Source: Eledone cirrhosa
Taxonomy: Eukaryota
Assembly: GCA_964016885.1 (NCBI GenBank)
Contig: OZ024753.1
Coordinates: 39,742,001 to 39,806,000 of the forward strand
Reading direction: 5' to 3'
Length of the DNA: 64,000 nt
Part shown: one piece after another, positions 3,075-59,996 of the stretch
Layout of the letters: each line of letters begins with the position of its first letter
How positions within the stretch are numbered: the stretch's first letter is position 1
The notes under the pieces: generated by a model
Told to the model about the DNA's origin: nothing
The model's input: only the letters and a program-made list of their open reading frames with translations
Database searches by the model: none
Position numbers and translations under genes: made by a program

Positions 3075-3269
3075 TCTGAAGACAGCATATATATGTGAAG
3101 GTATGTATATTCCCTCTGATAGTTTGTATAATTTTGTACATAGATCTTTTGAATATGCATACCAATTCTAACACATATATGTCCTAGAAACGATCGTAAA
3201 ATAATGAACTTTTTTTGTTTAATATAAGGAACTGTTTCTTTGTTTATTCATTATTTTTTAAATAATTTA

Positions 3270-5082
<1,813 letters not shown>

Positions 5083-7617: not shown

Positions 7618-7621
7618 TATG

Positions 7622-7672
7622 AGATTCTACAGGACTAGAACTGTTTCATTCTTTAGAAATCATCAGGAATCT
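7622..7672 (-). ncRNA. Type I hammerhead ribozyme (family A), inverted copy
   Basis: Reverse complement of 7997-8047. Confidence 0.85.
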
Positions 7673-7996
7673 GGGTATCAAAATATAAGTATGGTATTTA
7701 TAGGTCTCTACAGGTGGTAGGAGAGGGTAGGGAATGGGATGGGTGTAGGTCATTGGTTGATAGAAAAGGGAATTCATTAAAAGCTAATTCTTCAAAGCTA
7801 TAATTTATATTTAGAGTAACAAAGGCAGAAACTTGTTTATAGAATTCTTTCTGCCTTTGTTACTCTAAATATAAACTATAGCTTTGAAGAATTAGCTTTT
7901 AATGAATTCCCTTTTCTATCAACCAATGACCTACACCCATCCCACTCCCTACCATTTGAAGAGACCTATAAATACCATACTTATTTTTTGATACCC

Positions 7997-8047
7997 AGAT
8001 TCCTGATGATTTCTAAAGAATGAAACAGTTCTAGTCCTGTAGAATCT
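7997..8047 (+). ncRNA. Type I hammerhead ribozyme (family A)
   Basis: AGAUUC-CUGAUGA-U-UUC(UAAA)GAA-U-GAAA-CAG(UUCUAGUC)CUG-UA/GAAUCU: full core, stems I-III, GUA site. Confidence 0.85.
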
Positions 8048-8184
8048 CATCTATATTAAAACTTTTATACTCTGCAATGTATTGAGTACCTTACTTACTG
8101 TGGTTACCTCCGACTCAACCCAGAATAACGTACCTATATATATATATATATATATATATAAGTAGTTCCACAACAATTAGTTCA

Positions 8185-8246
8185 CCATACTGAGAACAAA
8201 TGTTTCACCTTTTGCGGATCTTCAGCTCGGTCTGAATGAAGTATGG
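8185..8246 (-). ncRNA. Minimal hammerhead ribozyme (family F) inside fold-back element 8160-8315
   Basis: CCAUAC..GAG-CUGAAGA-UCC(GCAAAA)GGU-GAAA-CAUUUG-UU/CUC-A-GUAUGG; ~59 bp inverted arms. Confidence 0.65.
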
Positions 8247-8389
8247 AAAAGGAGGCTCCGCATAAGGTGAAACATTTGTTCTCAGTATGGTGAACTAATT
8301 GTTGTGGAACTACTTCTACCAATATATATATATAAAATCATAAATTTTTTACTGTAACTATAAAAAAAGTCTGTTTTTTTTTACTCCAG

Positions 8390-23885: not shown

Positions 23886-24723
23886 CTGACAAATACACAT
23901 ACACATATATATATAGTTATACATACAAACATACATGGTGGCTGCCAACTCGTTTTCGAGTACGGCCACTACTTTATATCCATGTAGGAGAACCCCTACC
24001 GATGTGCTGAACGAGTGTGACTTTTTAGTCCAGCCAGCGACTTGAAAACTCTGGTACAAACACTACACTTGTGACCATTATTGACACATAGTGCTGGGCC
24101 CATGGTACCATGTGATGACAAGTGCAGAGAGATTTCCAGATATAAAGCAATGCCTGTGCCGTGAAGCTTTTATAGTGAGCAAAGGCACTGCACAAAGCCA
24201 GTCCCACTCTCTTAACCAAGATGATATTTACCAAAAAGAAGAACAAGTCAACATCATTGGATACCATCAGAGTTGCAGGTGTTATATCAGAGTTTTCTTT
24301 CTCCTAGAATTCTGCCTTGACAAAGACTAAGGGGTCATCTCTCCCGGTGATTTTGGATGGCCATTGACTCTTAAGAGCTTCTTTGCCCTTTGAAAGGTTT
24401 TGTTTTTAGTCCTGCAGGATGTCCAAAGTCACCCTCCAAACATACATACATACGTGCATACGCACACAAACACACATACATACATACATATAGGAAAAGT
24501 ATCAAGACCTCGTCGGCTGAGCTCCGGCCGTTTCGACAGCTGGATCCAAACGCGGTGCATTATGGTCCAACTAGTTTCTTACCACACTTTCTTTGCTATA
24601 TATATATATATATAGCAAATAAAGTGTATTATACATACAATTATACATATATACATACATATTTCTATCTCCCTTCCGCTTCATAATTTATTTTTATATA
24701 AATACATTTAGATAGAGGTTAAC

Positions 24724-25220: not shown

Positions 25221-25816
25221 AGAAGAAGGGAGTGTTGTGCAAGCTGAGAAAGCCGACCAATAAAGTCCCACATATCTAACGTAGTGAAGTGAAAATAACT
25301 TGCAGTTAGAAGGCAAACACTTTTTCTAGAAGTTGAACATTTTATATTAATATGTATATACTAAACACACACACACTCTCTCTCTCTCTCTCTCTCTGTA
25401 TATATATATTTTATTCGTTTGGACAAAGCCCGTTGATAAAGTATTCCCGTCCGCCGCTCTCTAGAAGTCTTATATATTTTTATGTGGGCTGATAGGGGGT
25501 GGATTAAGGAATTACAGAAACCCAAGAAGCTAGATTTACCATCTTTCTAGTGGGTCCGGGTAAGCTTTTTACATTCATATGATTTATTGATTTATTGATA
25601 TTTTATCTGAGTGACCCGAATCTTCCTGATCGTAATTTTTCGGTCGCATGGGTGATTTTAGACATAATCTTTGTGTGTTGGTATTTTAACGATAGTTATA
25701 GCTCTGATTTATCTGAATTATTGAGCCCCCTGCCACTCATGTCGAATTTGTTTATCGTAAACTCGTGAGCCGATTTTTCGATACTCGATTATTCTACTAT
25801 ATATATATATATATAT

Positions 25817-26040
25817 GCAAAAAGTAAGCAGAAACAACAAAATGAACGACGCAGTACAATGAAGAGATATATTAGTTTAACCCTTGATATTTTAGGAAAA
25901 GAGTCTTAACATTTCGGGCACCGGTCCTTTGTCAAAAGATAGAACGAGAAATAAAAGATGAAATAGAAAGATAGAGATTAAGAAGAGTAAGGAACTGGGA
26001 AAATGTCTTTTGAGAAAAAAAACACATAAATATTTAGTTA
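25817..26040 (-). mobile_element. Diverged family D element with decayed hammerhead (25904-25939)
   Basis: Alignable by eye to 52400-52590; core reads UCUU-UUGACAA-AGGAC..GCCC-GAAAUGUU-AAGA. Confidence 0.6.
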
Positions 26041-26890: not shown

Positions 26891-26927
<37 letters not shown>

Positions 26928-26931
<4 letters not shown>

Positions 26932-28427
26932 TGTGTGGTTAAGTAACCCATTGATAGACAAGAGATGGTCCCTTGAGAATGGGGACTCAGTATACATATA
27001 TATAGACCTGTGTGGTTAAGTAATCCATTGATAGACAAGAGATGGTCCCTTCAGAATGGGGACTCAGTATACATATATATAGACCTGTGTGGTTAAGTAA
27101 GCCAGTGATAGACAAGAGATGGTCCCTTGAGAATGGGGACTCAGTATATATATAGACCTGTGTGGTTAAGTAAGCCATTGATAGACAAGAGATGGTCCCT
27201 TGAGAATGGGGACTCAGTATACATATATATAGACCTGTGTGGTTAAGTAATCCATTGATAGACAAGAGATGGTCCCTTCAGAATGGGGACTCAGTATACA
27301 TATATATAGACCTGTGTGGTTAAGTAAGCCAGTGATAGACAAGAGATGGTCCCTTGAGAATGGGGGACTCAGTATACATATATATAGACCTGTGTGGTTA
27401 AGTAAGCCATTGATAGACAAGAGATGGTCCCTTGAGAATGGGGACTCAGTATATATATAGACCTGTGTGGTTAAGTAAGCCATTGATAGACAAGAGATGG
27501 TCCCTTGAGAATGGGGACTCATTATACATATAGACCTGTGTGGTTAAGTAAGCCAGTGATAGACAAGAGATGATCCCTTGAGAATGGGGACTCAGAATAT
27601 ACATAGACCTGTGTGGTTAAGTAAGCCAGTGATAGACAAGAGATGGTCCCTTGAGAATAGGGACTCAGTATATATATAGACCTGTGTGGTTAAGTAAGCC
27701 AGTGATAGACAAGCGATGGTCCCTTGAGAATAGGGACTCAGTATATATATATATATAGAGAGACCTGTGTGGTTAAGTAAGCCATTGATAGACAAGCGAT
27801 GGTCCCTTCAGAATGGGGACTCAGTATACATATATATAGACCTGTGTGGTTAAGTAAGCCAGTGATAGACAAGAGATGATCCCTTGAGAATGGGGACTCA
27901 GAATATACATAGACCTGTGTGGTTAAGTAAGCCAGTGATAGACAAGAGATGGTCCCTTGAGAATAGGGACTCAGTATATATATAGACCTGTGTGGTTAAG
28001 TAAGCCAGTGATAGACAAGCGATGGTCCCTTGAGAATAGGGACTCAGTATATATATATATATATATAGACCTGTGTGGTTAAGTAAGCCAGTGATAGACA
28101 AGCGATGGTCCCTTCAGAATGGGGACTCAGTATACATATATATAGACCTGTGTGGTTAAGTAAGCCATTGATAGACAAGAGATGGTCCCTTGAGAACGGG
28201 GACTCAGTATATATATAGACCTGTGTGGTTAAGTAAGCCAGTGATAGACAAGAGATGGTCCCTTGAGAATAGGGACTCAGTATATATATAGACCTGTGTG
28301 GTTAAGTAAGCCAGTGATAGACAAGAGATGGTCCCTTGAGAATAGGGACTCAGTATATATATAGACCTGTGTGGTTAAGTAAGCCAGTGATAGACAAGAG
28401 ATGGTCCCTTGAGAATGGGGACTCAGT
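26928..28427. repeat. ~70-80 bp minisatellite, about 20 units, (TA)n linkers
   Basis: AGACCTGTGTGGTTAAGTAAGCCA.TGATAGACAAGAGATGGTCCCTTGAGAATGGGGACTCAG repeated. Confidence 0.95.
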
Positions 28428-29465: not shown

Positions 29466-29572
29466 CATACATACACACATATATACATACATACAAGATA
29501 TATATCAAGCGTTAACCTAATATATCCCATGCTTATACTGTACCGATTGTGTTGTTATTTCTGTTTACCTTT

Positions 29573-29629
<57 letters not shown>

Positions 29630-29759
29630 GTGAGGTTTTTTTACAAAATGAAAAATAACCGAGGTGTCCTACACGAGTGAAAGTATAAAGAAAAAAAGAT
29701 GAAATCGAAAATGCAACTGGAGTCTTATTTAAAAAAATATATATATATTTATTTGGTTC

Positions 29760-29797
29760 CTTTACCGGTTTCGCAGTTCTTCTGCTTTTCAAAAGTA
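29760..29797 (-). ncRNA. Degenerate minimal hammerhead (family G)
   Basis: CUU-UUGAAAA-GCAG(AAGAA)CUGC-GAAACCGGUA/AAG; CUGANGA box mutated. Confidence 0.45.
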
Positions 29798-29948
29798 GAG
29801 TTGAGATGGAAGGTCTGTGGTTTTTCTCACATCATATATATATATATATGTGTGTGCGTATCTCGGGCTCAATCGGGGGTAACCACAGTAAGTAAGGGCT
29901 TTCTTGATGATTTCCTTCAAATGAATCAGCTCTGGTTATGTAGAAGCT

Positions 29949-30001
<53 letters not shown>

Positions 30002-30133
30002 CGAAGGAAATGTGGTAAGGAACCAGGTGGACCATAACGCACCAAAGTACTCAATACTTGGGGTAGTAGAGTGGGTAATAGGAACCAGTAAGACCCCGAC
30101 GGTTGAGCTCAAGCCGTCGGGGTCTTACTGGTT

Positions 30134-30184
<51 letters not shown>

Positions 30185-30400: not shown

Positions 30401-30437
<37 letters not shown>

Positions 30438-30628
30438 ATAGTCAGGACACTGACGGCTGAGCTCCAGCCGTTTCGACAATATATATGTATATATATGTAT
30501 ATATATATAGTTCTTAATGTGTGTGTTTATGTGTGTTTGTGTGTGTTTGCTTAAGTGTGTGTGTATGTGTGCGTGTATATGTATGTTTATGTAAGTATGT
30601 GTGTGTGTGTGTGTGTGTGTGTTATTAC

Positions 30629-31410: not shown

Positions 31411-32214
31411 CTACGAAGGGGTGATGCTAGTTTTGTGAAACCTTACATGCATTAATTTCAGCTCTTTTTATTAATAATTGCATTGTTTTCTTTCGAAGGA
31501 CCATGTCGAAAAATAAACCTTATTTGGTCCCTTGCATGAATTGTTTTATTTATCCATGTTGAAAAATAAGTCTCATTTAGTCATTCCATGAGAATATCTT
31601 GGTCAGCCTATGAACTTTTCAACCAACCCTCGTATATATTCTTCTTTTATAGAATTCTCTCATTGGATTGATGTAATGCTAAGGCAGCACTTTCACCCAC
31701 TAAATCTTTACTATTCTACCCGACATTCTAACAACTCTGCAAATATATATTATTCTTTTACAGATTTCTCTCACTATAATGGTACCATGCTAAGGTACCG
31801 CATTCAACTACTAACCCTTTACAAAGTTAAGTCTCAAACTGGACTCCTGGTCCCATATTTGGGTATCCTAGACAGCATTCAAACCAAGATCATTCGTCTG
31901 TATTGGCAAATGTTATGGTATTTCTATGATAAATTATGTGACAAAATTAAATAAAACTCTGTAAGTTGACATCACACACCAGGTTACATATTTTCATATA
32001 TTTACTACTCTTATTAACATGTTCAATATCTACCAAGAAACACCTAAACACATAGGTATATACCTACAGAAAGAAGCCATTTCTATAATATATAATATAT
32101 ATGTAATATATTATATATATATGAACACACGTACATTCACATGTATATATATACACACACACACACACATATATGCATGTGTGCATGTGTACATGCATAC
32201 ATATGGACATTTAT

Positions 32215-33965
32215 GTATATAAATATATATATATATATCTTTATATATATATCTCTTCATATATATATATATATCTTTATATATATATATATATATATAT
32301 ATATCTTTATATATATATCTCTTCATATATATATATATATATATCTTTATATATATATCTCTTCATATATATATATATCTTTATATATATATATATATAT
32401 ATTTAAATATATATATCTTTATATATATATATATATCTTTATATATATATATATATATATTTAAATATATATATCTTTATATATATATATATATCTTTAT
32501 ATATATATATATATATATTTAAATATATATATCTTTATATATATATATCTTTATATATATATATCTTTATATATATATATCTTTATATATATATATATCT
32601 TTATATATATATATATATATATATCTTTATATATATATATATATATATATCTTTATATATATATATATATATATCTTTATATATATATATATATCTTTAT
32701 ATATATATATATATCTTTATATATATATATCTTTATATATATATATATATATCTTTATATATATATATCTTTATATATATATATATATATCTTTATATAT
32801 ATATATATATATCTTTATATATATATATATATCTTTATATATATATATATATATCTTTATATATATATATATATATCTTTATATATATATATATATATCT
32901 TTATATATATATATATATATCTTTATATATATATATATATCTTTATATATATATATCTTTATATATATATCTTTATATATATATATATATCTTTATATAT
33001 ATATATATATATCTTTATATATATATATATATATCTTTATATATATATATATATATATATATATCTTTATATATATATATATATATATATCTTTATATAT
33101 ATATAAATGGATATATATATATATGAATATATATAAATAAATGAATATATATAAATAAATGAATATATATATATATAAATGGATATATATATATATATAA
33201 ATGGATATATATATATATATATAAATGGATATATATATATATATATAAATGGATATATATATATATATATAAATGGATATATATATATATATATATATAA
33301 ATGGATATATATATATATATATAAATGGATATATATATATATATATATAAATGGATATATATATATATATAAATGGATATATATATATATATATAAATGG
33401 ATATATATATATATAAAAGGAGATATATATATATATAAAAGTAGATATATATATATATAAATGGAAATATATATATATAAATGAATATATATACATATAT
33501 AAATGAATATATATACATATATAAATGAATATATATATATATATATAAATGAATATATATATATATATATAAATGAATATATATATATATATAAATGAAT
33601 ATATATATATAAATGAATATATATATATATATAAATGAATATATATATATATATAAAGGAATATATATATATATATATAAATGAATATATATATATATAA
33701 AGGAATATATATATATATATATATAAATGAATATATATATATATATATATAAATGAATATATATATTTAAATGAATATATATATATAAATGAATATATAT
33801 ATATATATAAATGAATATATATATATATATAAATGAATATATATATATATATAAATGAATATATATATATATATAAATGAATATATATATATATAAATTA
33901 ATATATATATATATATATATAAATGAATATATATATAAATGAATATATATATATATATATATAAA

Positions 33966-34040
<75 letters not shown>

Positions 34041-34065
34041 GAATATATATATATATATATATAAA

Positions 34066-34112
<47 letters not shown>

Positions 34113-34401
34113 GAATATATATATATATATATAAATGAATATATATATATATATAAATGAATATATATATATATATAAATGAATATATATATATATAAAT
34201 GAATATATATATATATAAATGAATATATATATATATAAATGAATATATATATATATATAAATGAATATATATATATATATATAAATGAATATATATATAT
34301 ATATATAAATGAATATATATATATATATATAAATGAATATATATATATATATATAAATGAATATATATATATATATATAAATGAATATATATATATATAT
34401 A

Positions 34402-34450
<49 letters not shown>

Positions 34451-34626
34451 GAATATATATATAAATATAAATGAATATATATATAAATATAAATGAATAT
34501 ATATATATATAAATGAATATATATATATATAAATGAATATATATATATATAAATGAATATATATATATATAAATGAATATATATATATATATATAAATGA
34601 ATATATATATATATATATAAATGAAT

Positions 34627-34665
<39 letters not shown>

Positions 34666-34812
34666 AATGAATATATATATAAATGAATATATATATATAT
34701 ATAAATGAATATATATATATATATAAATGAATATATATATAAATGAATATATATATATATATATATATAAATGAATATATATATATATATATAATTATAT
34801 ATATACATATAT
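32215..34812. repeat. (TA)n array with CTT, AATGG and AATGA interruption domains
   Basis: Direct inspection. Confidence 0.95.
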
Positions 34813-35046
34813 ATTCATATTAATTTTGAAATGTTTGCACGTATGACGCCGAACACGAAACGCACACAACCATATAACGCCACAAACATAACGACAACTA
34901 TAAAACCACACAACCACATAAACACACATCCACACAACCACATAACCACACAACCACATAACCACACAACCACACAAACATACAACCACAGAACCATACA
35001 ACCATACAACCATATAACCATATAGTAAAGAAGATATGTTGCTTAC

Positions 35047-37145: not shown

Positions 37146-38111
37146 ATAATAGCAACAGCAGTAACATCAGCAGGGAAAACAACATATACGTCTTATTATA
37201 TAGCGTCCTTCACACAGAGAATGTCAGAACGTTGATTTTTTGAGAGAAGAAGAACTAATATAATTGTTTGCATAGCTAAAAAATGTGTATGAGAATATAT
37301 TTGGCGAGGAAAATGTTTGTTGGGAATGCATTGAGTTAATAAATTCGGGACACTCATATTACTGGCAGACTAACAATAGCTACTTTGTTGATTAATATAC
37401 ACACACGCGCGCGCATATATATATATATATATATAAAACATAAACACACACAATACAATACAATACAATACAATATAATATAATATAATATAATATAATA
37501 TAATATAATAATTCAAAATGTTAACAAATATAGACATTCGTGTGATCAAGTATATTTTATTATACATATTTCAGAGGTACTGAGCTATCTTCAACAGTAC
37601 GTCCTCATCAGATAAAATAAGATGATGCTTGACATACCTTGACTATGTAGATGGTTAAAATTCAGTCATGACAGTGAATAAGTTAAGACAAAACTCCTAT
37701 ATATATATATATATATATATAACACAAACACACAATACAATACAATATGATATAAATGTTTCTACTTTAGGCACAAGGCCAGCAAATACCCAGTACATTA
37801 CTGGTACTTTATTTTATCAACCTCGTAAGGATGAAAGGCAAAGTTAACCTCGGCGGGATTTGAACTCAGACTGTAAAGGGACGTAACTATGCTAGAAAGC
37901 ATGGTGTCCAACCCTCTACTGATACTGCCAATATATAATATTCTCTACTTCGGTATTGAACACTGTTACCTTATGTTTCTAGCCCTCCTTTCCACACAGA
38001 GAGAGAGAGAGAGAGTGGTAAAATCCCGACTGTTCTATAACTACTCTGCATCTCCCTATTCATGATTAGTGGTTTCCCCGGTTTCAGCACCACATACTTT
38101 CTCTCCCTCCT

Positions 38112-40377: not shown

Positions 40378-40518
40378 CTGGCGAAGAGAAAGATATAGAA
40401 TTAGAGAATGAGTTAGAGAGATAGTGTGGTATATATATATATATATATATATACCACACTGTGTTTAGAATGAGAAAATGGGAAGTAGTTTCACATATTA
40501 AAGTCCTTTATTGGTAAT

Positions 40519-40593
40519 GCTGTGGTACATATTTCAATGACGACAGTGGCCACACGATTCCGTGAACCCAGTGCCGTGACATCATCAGACAGC
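40519..40593 (-). ncRNA. Degenerate hammerhead with long stem II (family H)
   Basis: GCUGU-CUGAUGA-(UG..ACGGCA.UGG / CCA.UGUCGU.CA)-GAAAUAUGUA-CC-ACAGC; between (TA)n tracts. Confidence 0.5.
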
Positions 40594-40645
40594 TTCTTAT
40601 ATAATAAGGTTACATTCCCAAGGCAATCTAAACAGATTCATGAAG

Positions 40646-40682
<37 letters not shown>

Positions 40683-41020
40683 GAAAGAGTCAGGACCCCG
40701 ACGGCTAAGCTCCGGCCGTTTCGACAGCTAGATCCGAACTTACCCAACAGTATTCTGGGTTAGTACTGATGGGTTAGTTCGGATCTAGTTGTCGAAACGG
40801 CCGGAGCTCAGCCGTCGGGGTCTTAACTCTTTTCCTATTACCCACTCCACTGCCCTAAGTATAGAGGACTCTGGTGCGTTATGGTCCACCTGGTTTCTTA
40901 CCACAGTTTCATTATGTAATATATGTATAAAGAAAGTGCCCAAGTGCAGAAATACTATAAATATAGCTTATAAAGAAGGTTGAACACCCTTAAAAGTGTA
41001 CGTGCGAGCATCTGTATGTG

Positions 41021-51449: not shown

Positions 51450-51937
51450 CTAGATGATGAAGAAATAAAAATAAATTATGTTTGGAAGATGAAAGGTTAT
51501 TGATTTTCGTAGATGTTTGATTGAAATCGATGTCTACTCTCGGTTCACTGATTACAAGTTCGTCCCGCATCACTTGGCACTTGCTGAATATTGTCGGTAA
51601 AGCAACATAAGTACCTCGCTTCATTATACTATAAAAGAAATGGAGGACTAAAAGGTGCTTGGCCTATAGTAGATAGATTTCAACATGATTAGATAGTACT
51701 ATGTGGCATTGATCGTTGGATTATAACCACGTGGAGCCGATTCAATTCATATAAAGACTCTTTGAACTCCAGCAACAGTAAGCAATATACTATCGTTTGA
51801 GATTTACGGGAGTCGGCTGAAATGTTCATAGGCTGAAACAGTTCATAGACTGACAGATACTCTCATGTTATAACCCTCGTATGTATACGAGGGTTATAAC
51901 TTGAGAGTATCTTTGTCAGTCTATGAACCTTTTTTCA

Positions 51938-51974
<37 letters not shown>

Positions 51975-51975
<1 letters not shown>

Positions 51976-52174
51976 GTACGTTATTCCGGGTTGAATCGGA
52001 GGTAACCACAGTAAGTAAGGTACTCAATACATTGCAGAGTATAAAAGTTTTAATATAGATGAGATTCTACAGGACTAGAACTGTTTCATTCTTTAGAAAT
52101 CATCAGGAATCCCCTGATTCCTGATGATTTCTAAAGAATGAAACAGTTCTAGTCCTGTAGAATCTCATCTATAT
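51975..52174. mobile_element. Fold-back family A element with two opposed intact hammerheads (52062-52111 -, 52116-52165 +)
   Basis: Near-identical to 7998-8133 in reverse orientation; arms separated by CCCT; bounded by (TA)n. Confidence 0.85.
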
Positions 52175-52462
52175 ATATATATATATATAATGGAAAAATT
52201 TGAACAGGGACAAAACAGAGAGGCAGTACAACGAATGTTTATTAATTTCACGCTCTGGAGAGTGGGGTGTTGGCTCTCTCTATCACTATCTCTCACTCTC
52301 TCTCTTCTTCACTTTTTCTATCTCTCTCTCTATATATATATTCTTCACTTTCTCTATTTCTCTCTCTCTCTATCAACATGAATGACCTGTTATTTTTATC
52401 TAAAGACAATTTTTCCAATTCCATCTCGTCCGTCCTTTCAATCTATCTTATTTCTCATTCTT

Positions 52463-52498
52463 TCTTCTGATGAAAGACTAACGTCCGAAACGTTAAGA
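52463..52498 (+). ncRNA. Minimal hammerhead ribozyme (family D) in pseudo-LTR-like element 52373-52590
   Basis: UCUU-CUGAUGA-AA-GAC(UAAC)GUC-C-GAAACGUU/AAGA, the short-stem-III form known from Penelope elements. Confidence 0.8.
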
Positions 52499-52587
52499 CA
52501 GACCCTCTTCCTGCTATATCAGGCGTTAACCTAATATATTCCTTCTATATACTGTACCGATTGTGTTGTTATTTCTGTTTACCTTTT

Positions 52588-52646
<59 letters not shown>

Positions 52647-52647
<1 letters not shown>

Positions 52648-52863
52648 CGAAGGAAATGTGGTAAGGAACCAGGTGGACCATAACGCACCAAAGTACTCAA
52701 TACTTGGGGTAGTAGAGTGGGTAATAGGAACCAGTAAGACCCCGACGGCTGAGCTCAAGCCGTTTCGACGGCTAATTCTGGACTAAATGAAAATTTTCAT
52801 TTAGTCCAGAATTAGCCGTCGAAACGGCTTGAGCTCAGCCGTCGGGGTCTTACTGGTTCCTAT
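52647..52863. mobile_element. Fold-back family B element with hammerhead 3' half (GAAA-CGGC..GCCG-UC)
   Basis: Perfect 70 bp arms 52724-52793 / 52794-52863; relatives at 24492-24598, 30001-30138, 30434-30478, 40681-40910, 59716-59893; adjacent to TA-rich microsatellites. Confidence 0.75.
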
Positions 52864-54255
52864 ATATATATATATATATATATATGATTTCACAGCTCTA
52901 ATATCACACCTTCGTAGTCAGCCCAGGAACAACAACAATAACCACAATTACCCCCATCAATTGTATAACACTTATTTTGCTATTTTGATAACAGTAGAAA
53001 TATCTTCTACCTCTCCAATGTAATAACGTGTGTTTAGTTTTCAAATATAAAACGTGTTTAAATGCTTCCTTCTGCTAGTTTCAACTAGTTTAACTGGTTG
53101 GAACTGGTTGGCACTTCTCACTCGCGACATCTCCATGAAATTCTGTAGAAAAATATAATTAAAAGGAAATTCAAACCTGCTTTTCCTTCTTACAAGCGTG
53201 ATTTGCAACCAGGGAAGGCTGAGAGAAGTTGGGGGATTTATTTGCTAGGAATGTAGCACAAGCGAATTTATGTACACAGTTTTCAGCCTTTAATACCAAC
53301 ATATGATCTCATTATTGAGATAATCTGGATAGCGCTAGGTTTCCACTCAAACTCATCGGAATAATAAACAATAATAAACAAAATCTTTCCCAAACGATAA
53401 CCTACAGTTATGTAGAAAAAAAGGGAAAGTACATTGGATAGTGCCATCCTAAATACAGTATTTCTGAAAATAAATTTGAGCGATCACTTCTGGAATTGGT
53501 TACATGTTAACAATAGCACCCAGGAGTGACCTGACATGGTCGGGTCGTCGGTGACTAAACAGGCAACGAAGATTGCTTGATAATGAGGGTGATGTAGTAA
53601 AGGAAGACCTGCTGGAACCTTTATACAATAGACAATAGACAAACCTTTAGACAACACAAACCTCAGTAGGGAGCAGTTGCCAGGAGCAACGGAAAATTGT
53701 GAATTGTGGAGAGACTTTGTCAGAAATGTTAGACTGTGGTTGCAATGATGATGATGATGATGAATGATTTTGGACCCCCTGTGGGATGAAAACTAAGATC
53801 TGACAAAGGGTGGAGGAACTTATGAGAGTCAATGGCCATCCAATGATGTGTACATGTGTATATGTTGTGTGAGTGTATAAATATATGTTAAGAGTGTGCA
53901 GAGCTGTAGTAGCTTTCACTGGTTGACACTGGATGGTCTTTTATGGCGTCCCTGTGTGTCCCAGTGTCTGTCCAGTATGTCACTCAGCGAACTGATGTCA
54001 AACTGAAGACTCGCAATAAATGCTCATTCAAGCTGAACACCTAGCTTTTCTCAGGGGGTGTCTTGGGTGTTTTAATGATAAAACATTTGGAACCGATGCC
54101 ATAAAGCGTCCCTTTCGACGCTCTTACTATTCCACCAATCCAACTCCCTGAACAGGACTGGACTGGTACTTTATTTATCTATCTAGAAAGTACAGATACT
54201 ATAGTCATGGATACACGAGAATATAGGATCGTAACGGCTGAAACAATTGATTATA

Positions 54256-59240: not shown

Positions 59241-59930
59241 CTGTATATCTCTTGCGTTGGGTAGGAGGTAAATTATATGTACAAACATTAAAAATGCTCC
59301 GAAGACTCCAAGCCTAGGTTTGGAAGAAACAATTGTCAGCGAATAAATGTTTTGAACATAGCTTTGATTCTTGTGAATTCTCTCTCTTTCTCTTTCTCTT
59401 TCTCTCTCTCAAGCGTAAAACTAATTATATATTTCTTCATTGTCCTGTGTCGTTTGCTTTGTTATTTCTACTGGCCTTTTGCATATATATACAGGGTGTT
59501 TCAAATAATTTAATATCATTTGACATGTAAATATCCCAGAAACTACAAGGTCTAGGACAACGAGACTAAGCAGGTTCCATGTTGAGTAACACAATATTTA
59601 TTCCTCAAAACATGTCCACGTTATAACATTAATTAACAATATATATTTCAACGTGACAACCTTGGGAACAGACCATTGATATCAAATTTTTTGAAACACC
59701 CGGTATTTATATATAACAAAGAAGGTGTGGTAATAAATCAAGTGGACCATAACGCACCAGAGTACTCGATACTTTGGGTAATAGAGTGGGTAATAGGAAA
59801 AGAGTCAGGACCCCGACGGCTGAGCTCCGGACGTTTCGACAGCTAGATCCAGGCGGCCAGAGCTCAGCCGTCGGGGTCCTGACTCTTTTCCTCTATATAT
59901 TCATATATATGTATATATATATATTTAATA

Positions 59931-59996
59931 TAGAAATGGCTTCTACAGGACTAGAACTGTTTCATTCCAAGGAAATCCTCAGGCAAGCCATTTCTA
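59931..59996 (-). ncRNA. Type I hammerhead ribozyme, family A variant
   Basis: UAGAAAUGGCUU(G)C-CUGAGGA-U-UUC(CUUG)GAA-U-GAAA-CAG..CUG-UA/GAAGCCAUUUCUA; stem I sequence differs from family A but still pairs. Confidence 0.8.

What the first reader, a model, noticed from the sequence alone, without database searches (positions are those of the whole stretch)
51975..52863. Different ribozyme-element families chained in shared (TA)n landing pads
Seen: families A, D and B sit side by side, separated mostly by TA/CA microsatellite. The pattern recurs at 29498-30138 (D tail, G, decayed A, B), 7619-8315 (A, F), 40453-40910 (H, B) and 59716-59996 (B, A variant). Inference: several Penelope lineages target (TA)n and keep or regenerate the target, building ribozyme arrays. 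This may feed the very large TA tracts in the window.
Basis: partly seen in the sequence, partly recalled or inferred. Interest (0 to 1): 0.75.

Follow-up and report, generated by a model that had tools for sequence, protein, structure and literature searches.

The report
Penelope-element ends piled in TA repeats
Short tail ends of several unrelated jumping genes of a known class sit side by side, likely because each inserted on its own into the same long TA repeat and split it; the chains are real but only modestly more common than chance, most members lack a whole ribozyme, and three readable insertions added no new TA.

Summary
The chains are real. 51975-52860 holds four families (A, a missed family E, D, B). 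Each is the 3' end of a Penelope-like element (PLE): A and B are Hydra clade, D and likely E Neptune clade. (TA)n targeting by these clades is published, including an octopus Hydra family. The cluster is single-copy, and junctions elsewhere are mixed (21 types in 27), so it is not one composite element. In 1.2 Mb of random genome, pads flanked by two different recurrent families number 80 of 878, against 62-69 expected under independence: a modest 1.2-1.3-fold excess. 'Keep the target' holds. 'Regenerate the target' is unsupported: three insertions in regularly punctuated TA arrays show no gain, and TA pads differ by up to 538 bp between two copies of one locus without any insertion. The window's two giant TA tracts contain no element. 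'Ribozyme array' overstates it: E and this B copy lack the core, and A's two motifs fold into one long hairpin. The scan has already noted this system in many other windows of this genome. Verdict: new members of a known kind, low interest.

The parts
51941..51974 (.). (TA)n pad, left
51975..52169 (-). Family A: 3' end of a Hydra-clade PLE, long end at 51975, inverted arm ending at the short end at 52169; apex 52112-52115
   Evidence: ORF link
52061..52113 (-). Type I hammerhead motif of A (main arm)
52116..52164 (+). Type I hammerhead motif of A (inverted arm); a transcript across both arms is predicted to fold as one long hairpin, -110.8 kcal/mol
52170..52189 (.). (TA)n pad shared by the A short end and the E end
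52190..52273 (-).
52274..52371 (.). TC-rich simple sequence joining the 5' ends of E and D; not D's own upstream sequence
52372..52588 (+). Family D: 3' end of a Neptune-clade PLE with a minimal hammerhead (core 52467-52495, GUU cleavage triplet read from the sequence)
52589..52646 (.). (CA)n(TA)n pad shared by D and the B long end
52647..52860 (-). Family B: 3' end of a young Hydra-clade PLE, fold-back, lacks the hammerhead core; 142 of 144 identical to an intact tandem copy
52861..52885 (.). (TA)n pad, right
7619..8322 (.). Second chain: A fold-back with long arms, (TA)26 bp, F fold-back
29501..30138 (.). Third chain: D tail, G, decayed A, B with a different apex from the focal copy
40453..40912 (.). 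Fourth chain: H, (TA)32 bp, older B variant (86% to young B)
59716..59983 (.). Fifth chain: older B variant, TA pad, A variant

Best explanation
The chains are 5'-truncated ends of unrelated (TA)n-targeting Penelope-like elements that likely inserted one after another into the same long TA tract, each insertion splitting the tract so that both halves remain targets. SHOWN: A and B are ends of Hydra-clade ORFs and D of a Neptune-clade ORF; ends abut (TA)n; A and B copies have two fixed ends (short and long) and usually an inverted arm; the template continues with TAT just past each of the three ends that could be read; junction partners are mixed. INFERRED: the GIY-YIG nuclease prefers long TA tracts and cuts with little or no stagger; the reverse transcriptase primes on both cut ends through a few bases of TA pairing, at two internal sites downstream of the hammerhead; B cDNAs mostly stop 34-45 nt upstream of the cleavage site and are joined back to back; later slippage lengthens or shortens the pads. 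The small excess of chains would follow from a steep preference for long pure tracts plus their persistence.
For: Family to ORF: 27 of 30 loci found with the B protein carry the B end within 1.5 kb by strict motif; an intact 784-aa frame lies in a 3531-bp tandem. Clade motifs. Composite single-copy: only the self hit spans the query among 40 scored candidates; 21 junction types in 27 heterologous junctions, commonest 4. Chaining near independence: 80 observed vs 62.1 (global), 68.9 (TA-length strata), 67.4 (within locus) in 878 pads. Side occupancy rises with TA length from 0.14 to 0.43. No gain: in L017, L028, L212 the two flanks sum to 12, 16, 13 bp against neighbouring units of 14, 18, 15. 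Short tracts appear spared: 0 of 30 inspected copies (of 49 matches) of a repeat with a 17-21 bp internal TA tract carry an insert there. Insertion-free pad flux between two copies of one locus: differences of 32 to 538 bp, and the same A copy has 38 bp TA in one and 22 TC + 64 TA in the other. A toy model with no gain and length-squared targeting gives a 1.39-1.49 excess and the observed ordering of pad lengths (observed 1.34).
Against: The excess is real after internal pads are dropped (P 0.002-0.03); for A/B, the far side of the pad is occupied in 45 of 102 cases vs 31.6 expected from TA length. Pads get longer with more neighbours (median 18.5, 35, 45 bp), and the same toy model fits equally well with linear targeting plus 10-25 bp gain per side. 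Of the 6 insertions in punctuated arrays, 3 lie in irregular arrays and have flank sums 4-6 times the median unit. The one empty/filled pair found (a SINE-like insert, not a PLE) went from 45 bp to 13 + 239 bp TA. Interruption type on the two sides was uninformative (6 same, 4 opposite). No PLE empty allele was obtained. No ORF was linked to F, G or H; E rests on one endonuclease fragment in 20 loci.
Confidence: 0.75

Rival explanations
1. Insertion regenerates the target: a staggered cut or primer slippage adds 10-25 bp of TA per side in many insertions, giving positive feedback that builds chains.
For: Young B long ends have median 27-31 bp pure TA, with only 1 of 29 below 10 bp, against a median of 10 for uniform splitting of length-weighted tracts; pad length rises with occupancy; the model fits with gain; the plant TA-targeting MuTAnT transposon shows longer filled than empty sites (PMC4486113 passages).
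Against: Three clean cases with zero gain; no split-and-extended copies among 30 hosts with a short internal tract and no hits in two junction pattern searches; pads change by hundreds of bp without insertion.
Confidence: 0.15
2. Chains move as composites: read-through transcripts or template switching carry several families together.
For: Long A copies contain other elements nested in their own microsatellite-rich 3' UTR; E and D are joined back to back without TA, as a two-template insertion would be; A-long/B-long is the commonest junction (4 of 27).
Against: The focal composite is single-copy; members differ in age (A, B 97-100% to relatives, D 93% at best); B copies in the window have different apexes; A and B are simply the commonest ends.
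Confidence: 0.07
3. The clusters are functional ribozyme arrays kept by selection or used for RNA processing.
For: Three intact-looking hammerhead motifs lie within 450 bp.
Against: E and B lack cores here; A's arms are predicted to pair with each other; no Rfam hit at gathering score; order and orientation vary; PLE minimal hammerheads cleave poorly in vitro (PMC4209133).
Confidence: 0.03

Closest known systems
Hydra clade of C-terminal EN+ Penelope-like elements, incl. Hydra-1_Obim (Craig et al. 2021, PMC8557442; section 11, passages and supplement rows read)
   Same: RW[KR], DKT, CxCX5C, CxxC and CxH motifs, no CCHH, hammerhead in the pLTR, (TA)n preference, inverted 5' arm, tail.
   Different: A and B look like other families than Hydra-1_Obim (different hammerhead sequence; compared by eye only). 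B's unit is 3.5 kb (paper: generally under 3 kb). The stretch between short and long ends is about 70-80 nt, not 30-40. Chains of families are not described in the passages read.
Neptune clade PLEs (as defined in PMC8557442)
   Same: D's ORF has CX2-5CxxC upstream of a CCHH-type GIY-YIG; microsatellite bias is attributed to this linker.
   Different: Only degraded D and E ORF fragments were seen; no tree was built.
[quoted passage not shown]
   Same: Motifs near PLE ends, mostly in truncated copies, pairs on opposite strands 100-700 bp apart, and the U3-A8 core variant that full-length B carries.
   Different: B has a full stem III and folds as a monomer in the minimum-energy structure; most B copies lack the core.
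Poseidon PAc of Anolis (Frangieh et al. 2024, PMC11167929; parts 1-2 of 4 read)
   Same: Two internal start sites downstream of the hammerhead define the tail; both DNA strands are cut and extended; AT-rich target.
   Different: PAc initiates without homology to the cut DNA; here all three readable ends are followed by TAT in the template, which suggests TA micro-pairing.
TA-microsatellite-targeting DNA transposons, MuTAnT (PMC4486113, passages read)
   Same: Short fold-back elements flanked by variable (TA)n; safe-haven logic.
   Different: Mutator-type with 9-bp duplication and longer filled sites; the PLE cases readable here show no gain.

Membership tests
EN+ Penelope-like element (A, B) | Single ORF with RT and C-terminal GIY-YIG endonuclease | tested here: met
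   B: 784-aa frame with YRDD and YIG; no Pfam hit for B, weak sub-threshold GIY-YIG hit for A; A seen in separate broken pieces
EN+ Penelope-like element (A, B) | pLTR from tandem or partial tandem organisation; inverted 5' copy; tail | tested here: met
   B tandem of 3531 bp, inverted arms, 14 long and 13 short ends in 30 ORF loci. A: inverted arms and two ends; no A tandem fetched
Hydra clade (A, B) | RWK-type motif and DKT | tested here: met
   RWR and DKT in both
Hydra clade (A, B) | CxCX5C linker, CxxC and CxH motifs, CCHH absent | tested here: met
   against the definition
Hydra clade (A, B) | Insertion into (TA)n | tested here: met
Hydra clade (A, B) | Placement in the RT phylogeny | not tested
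   reference sequences were seen only as supplement text and compared by eye
Neptune clade (D) | CX2-5CxxC linker plus CCHH GIY-YIG, C-terminal | tested here: met
   L273 has both, L272 has CCHH; 2 of 19 other D loci reach the ORF within 1.5 kb
Neptune clade (E) | CX2-5CxxC linker plus CCHH GIY-YIG | tested here: inconclusive
   only the last 70 aa seen (L288), 49% identical to D's endonuclease, E 3e-21
Type I hammerhead ribozyme | Core plus three stems | tested here: met
   A, full-length B, D minimal form; not met for the E and B copies of the focal cluster
Type I hammerhead ribozyme | Self-cleavage | not testable with these tools
   needs an assay
Single composite element | Same multi-family order and junctions at several loci | tested here: not met
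Non-LTR retrozyme | Non-coding head-to-tail hammerhead monomers | tested here: not met
   A, B, D and probably E are ends of coding elements; F, G, H not tested; a minor head-to-tail A form appears in reads

The most novel reading that the evidence does not exclude
TA-targeting PLEs farm their own niche: many insertions lengthen the pad, and family A ships about 1 kb of TA/TG microsatellite inside its 3' UTR that other families then colonise. Together these form a feedback loop that helps explain why about 5% of this genome is pure (TA)n.
Probability: 0.2. Interest if true: 0.6.

Novelty: new member of a known kind. Interest (0 to 1): 0.27.

Why it matters
As found, it is a genome-ecology footnote: on the order of 10^5 copies of known PLE clades share one target, so chains follow. 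Two details are useful for the open question of how PLEs integrate, which PMC8557442 names as unresolved. Punctuated TA arrays act as rulers and show no target duplication in three cases. Copy ends fall just before a TA in the template. The young B family with intact 784-aa frames is a good substrate for in vitro work. If the feedback case held, it would tie retroelement activity to microsatellite content of a whole genome.

Tried and rejected
Rfam scan: 0 hits. Empty allele from public runs: contigs break at the repeats and RAD reads do not cover the flanks. B inserted in a host's short internal TA: 0 hits in two patterns, which only allow short flanks; a second host gave 2 hits, neither split by an insert. 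Paralogous empty sites among 614 candidates: no clean PLE case in the part of the output seen. Second copies of two unplaced contigs: none among scored hits. One duplicate pair of 25 kb gave no PLE presence/absence (automatic alignment partly out of register in repeat-rich parts). Split-position test: weak (9 of 9 with both flanks 10 bp or more vs 7.0 expected, P 0.09; first part of that script failed on zero sums). Flank length vs age of B: no trend (rho -0.15, n 27). My first guess of Neptune for A and B was rejected on motifs. Literature: 9 searches found no paper on multi-family PLE chains in TA tracts. The library lacks most subscription papers and Repbase; bioRxiv supplements were closed; O. 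vulgaris repeat paper PMC13282606 seen as passages only (no 'hammerhead').

Full report
Setting. The window is G000:C13:39742001-39806000 of a 3.0-Gb animal genome. It is probably an octopus; that is inference from recalled repeat look-alikes, by-eye similarity to Hydra-1_Obim and earlier AI notes, and was not tested.

Observation. The five chains exist as described. The focal one has four members, not three: A (fold-back, two hammerheads), an 84-nt tail of a further family E, D, and B (fold-back). TA pads separate A/E and D/B; E and D are joined by TC-rich sequence that is not D's upstream region.

What the members are. I drew 120 random 10-kb stretches (weighted to the large contigs and limited to then-known lengths, so not perfectly uniform). 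One showed B directly downstream of a GIY-YIG ORF. That protein gave 150 scored matches at 98-100% identity, many in 784-aa frames; 27 of 30 fetched loci carry the B end by strict motif. Intact tandems have a 3531-bp period. A lies downstream of a sister ORF, 51% identical. Both carry the Hydra-clade motifs given in PMC8557442 section 11. That paper's supplement lists Hydra-1_Obim and two octopus Naiads with (TA)n preference. D lies downstream of an ORF with CX2-5CxxC and CCHH, i.e. Neptune type. E's endonuclease tail is 49% identical to D's. F, G and H were not linked to ORFs. Rough copy numbers from ends on pads: B about 9x10^4, A 3x10^4, D 2x10^4, E 1x10^4.

Anatomy. A and B have two fixed 3' ends, like the two start sites that define the tail in PMC11167929. 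In the template each readable end is followed by TAT (B short, B long, A short). 14 of 21 young B copies stop 34-45 nt upstream of the cleavage site, and 19 of 21 lack the core at about -84. Full-length B folds as a type I hammerhead with the U3-A8 core variant of PMC4209133. A transcript over either focal fold-back is predicted to form one long hairpin. So the chains are mostly not working ribozyme arrays.

Targeting. 15 of 15 random and 13 of 14 protein-selected B long ends have 10 bp or more of pure TA; background 3.6%. Over all loci, 167 of 185 A/B ends pass a strict TA test vs 5.5% of random positions (this set includes loci picked with TA-containing queries, and most misses have 9-15 bp TA or are internal read-through). 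Occupancy climbs with tract length.

Co-occurrence. If each insertion splits a tract and all tracts stay equal targets, left and right occupancy are independent (my derivation). With all 907 pads, heterologous double occupancy was 87 vs 75.8, 79.0 and 81.7 (P 0.04, 0.11, 0.22). After dropping 29 pads with fixed partners (mostly TA tracts internal to one element), it was 80 of 878 vs 62.1, 68.9 and 67.4 (P 0.002, 0.03, 0.012). For the six window families it was 8 vs 2.5-4.1. Families were grouped by eye from end clusters, families with under three ends are missed, and several tests were run. About one pad in eleven is a chain link genome-wide, so the window is not special. The composite is single-copy and junctions are mixed.

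Keep or regenerate. Against gain: three insertions in regularly punctuated arrays leave exactly one unit's worth of TA; none of 30 inspected hosts with a 17-21 bp internal tract is split; two copies of one 25-kb locus differ by 32-538 bp in many TA pads with no insertion. For gain: flanks of young copies are rarely short, pads lengthen with occupancy, three irregular cases have large sums, and one SINE-like insert sits in a much longer tract than its empty copy. A toy simulation cannot separate steep length preference from modest gain. The zero-gain cases show gain is not obligatory; they do not exclude it in pure tracts. The giant tracts at 3268-5079 and 32212-34814 are arrays of (TA)n plus fixed punctuation with no element inside (middle of the second tract partly cut from view), which points to unit duplication. 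A different route to new targets exists: all four long A copies examined carry about 1 kb or more of TA/TG repeat in the 3' UTR, three of them with other elements nested in it. Its genome-wide share was not measured and is likely small, as most copies are short.

Mechanism and verdict. Most likely: independent, sequential insertion by two PLE clades into long TA tracts, priming on both cut ends (inferred; also proposed in an earlier AI note), no obligatory duplication, later slippage. Classes, target and ribozymes are published; the families appear new; the chains are an expected by-product. The scan has noted the system in many other windows of this genome. The chain statistics and the punctuated-array ruler were not in the notes shown. 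Interest 0.27.

Noticed in passing
L214, L217, L218, L221 (long family A copies): A carries about 1 kb or more of TA/TG simple repeat in its 3' UTR between conserved anchors, and other elements nest inside it.
   Followed up: partly
window 52043-52111, raw reads X5-X7: Reads show a head-to-tail junction of an about 77-nt unit holding A's hammerhead (joint 52111 to 52043 with 8-9 letters between), like a very small retrozyme or partial tandem.
   Followed up: no
family B, genome-wide: 5' ends cluster at -34 to -45 from the cleavage site in 14 of 21 young copies, which may mark a transcript start or RT stop; A apexes carry 1-5 variable letters at the 5' edge of stem I (A set biased by the query).
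   Followed up: partly
window 51808-51940: A 106-bp imperfect inverted repeat abuts the left TA pad; its ends resemble a Tc1/mariner-type miniature element (recalled, untested).
   Followed up: no
window 3268-5079 and 32212-34814: Giant TA arrays whose punctuation (AATC, A, CTT, AATGG, AATGA) changes in blocks along the array.
   Followed up: partly
G000:C846 vs G000:C26:14.99-15.02 Mb (L301-L306): The 25-kb unplaced contig is a second copy or haplotype of a chromosome region; it has a SINE-like presence/absence in a TA tract and many pad length differences.
   Followed up: partly
run X1 (organism A): A and D tails are deeply covered but the young B end much less, so B may have expanded after the split from that organism (contig depth is a poor measure).
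   Followed up: no
window 37553-37619 (-), 24490-24593, 25816-26024, 30430-30479: Further hammerhead or family B/D remnants outside the listed chains.
   Followed up: no
L144:2114-4444: An intact 777-aa PLE frame of another family whose flanks contain TA/TG tracts.
   Followed up: no
window 26919-28427: About 20 copies of a 73-75 bp tandem unit that begins with a short TA run.
   Followed up: no
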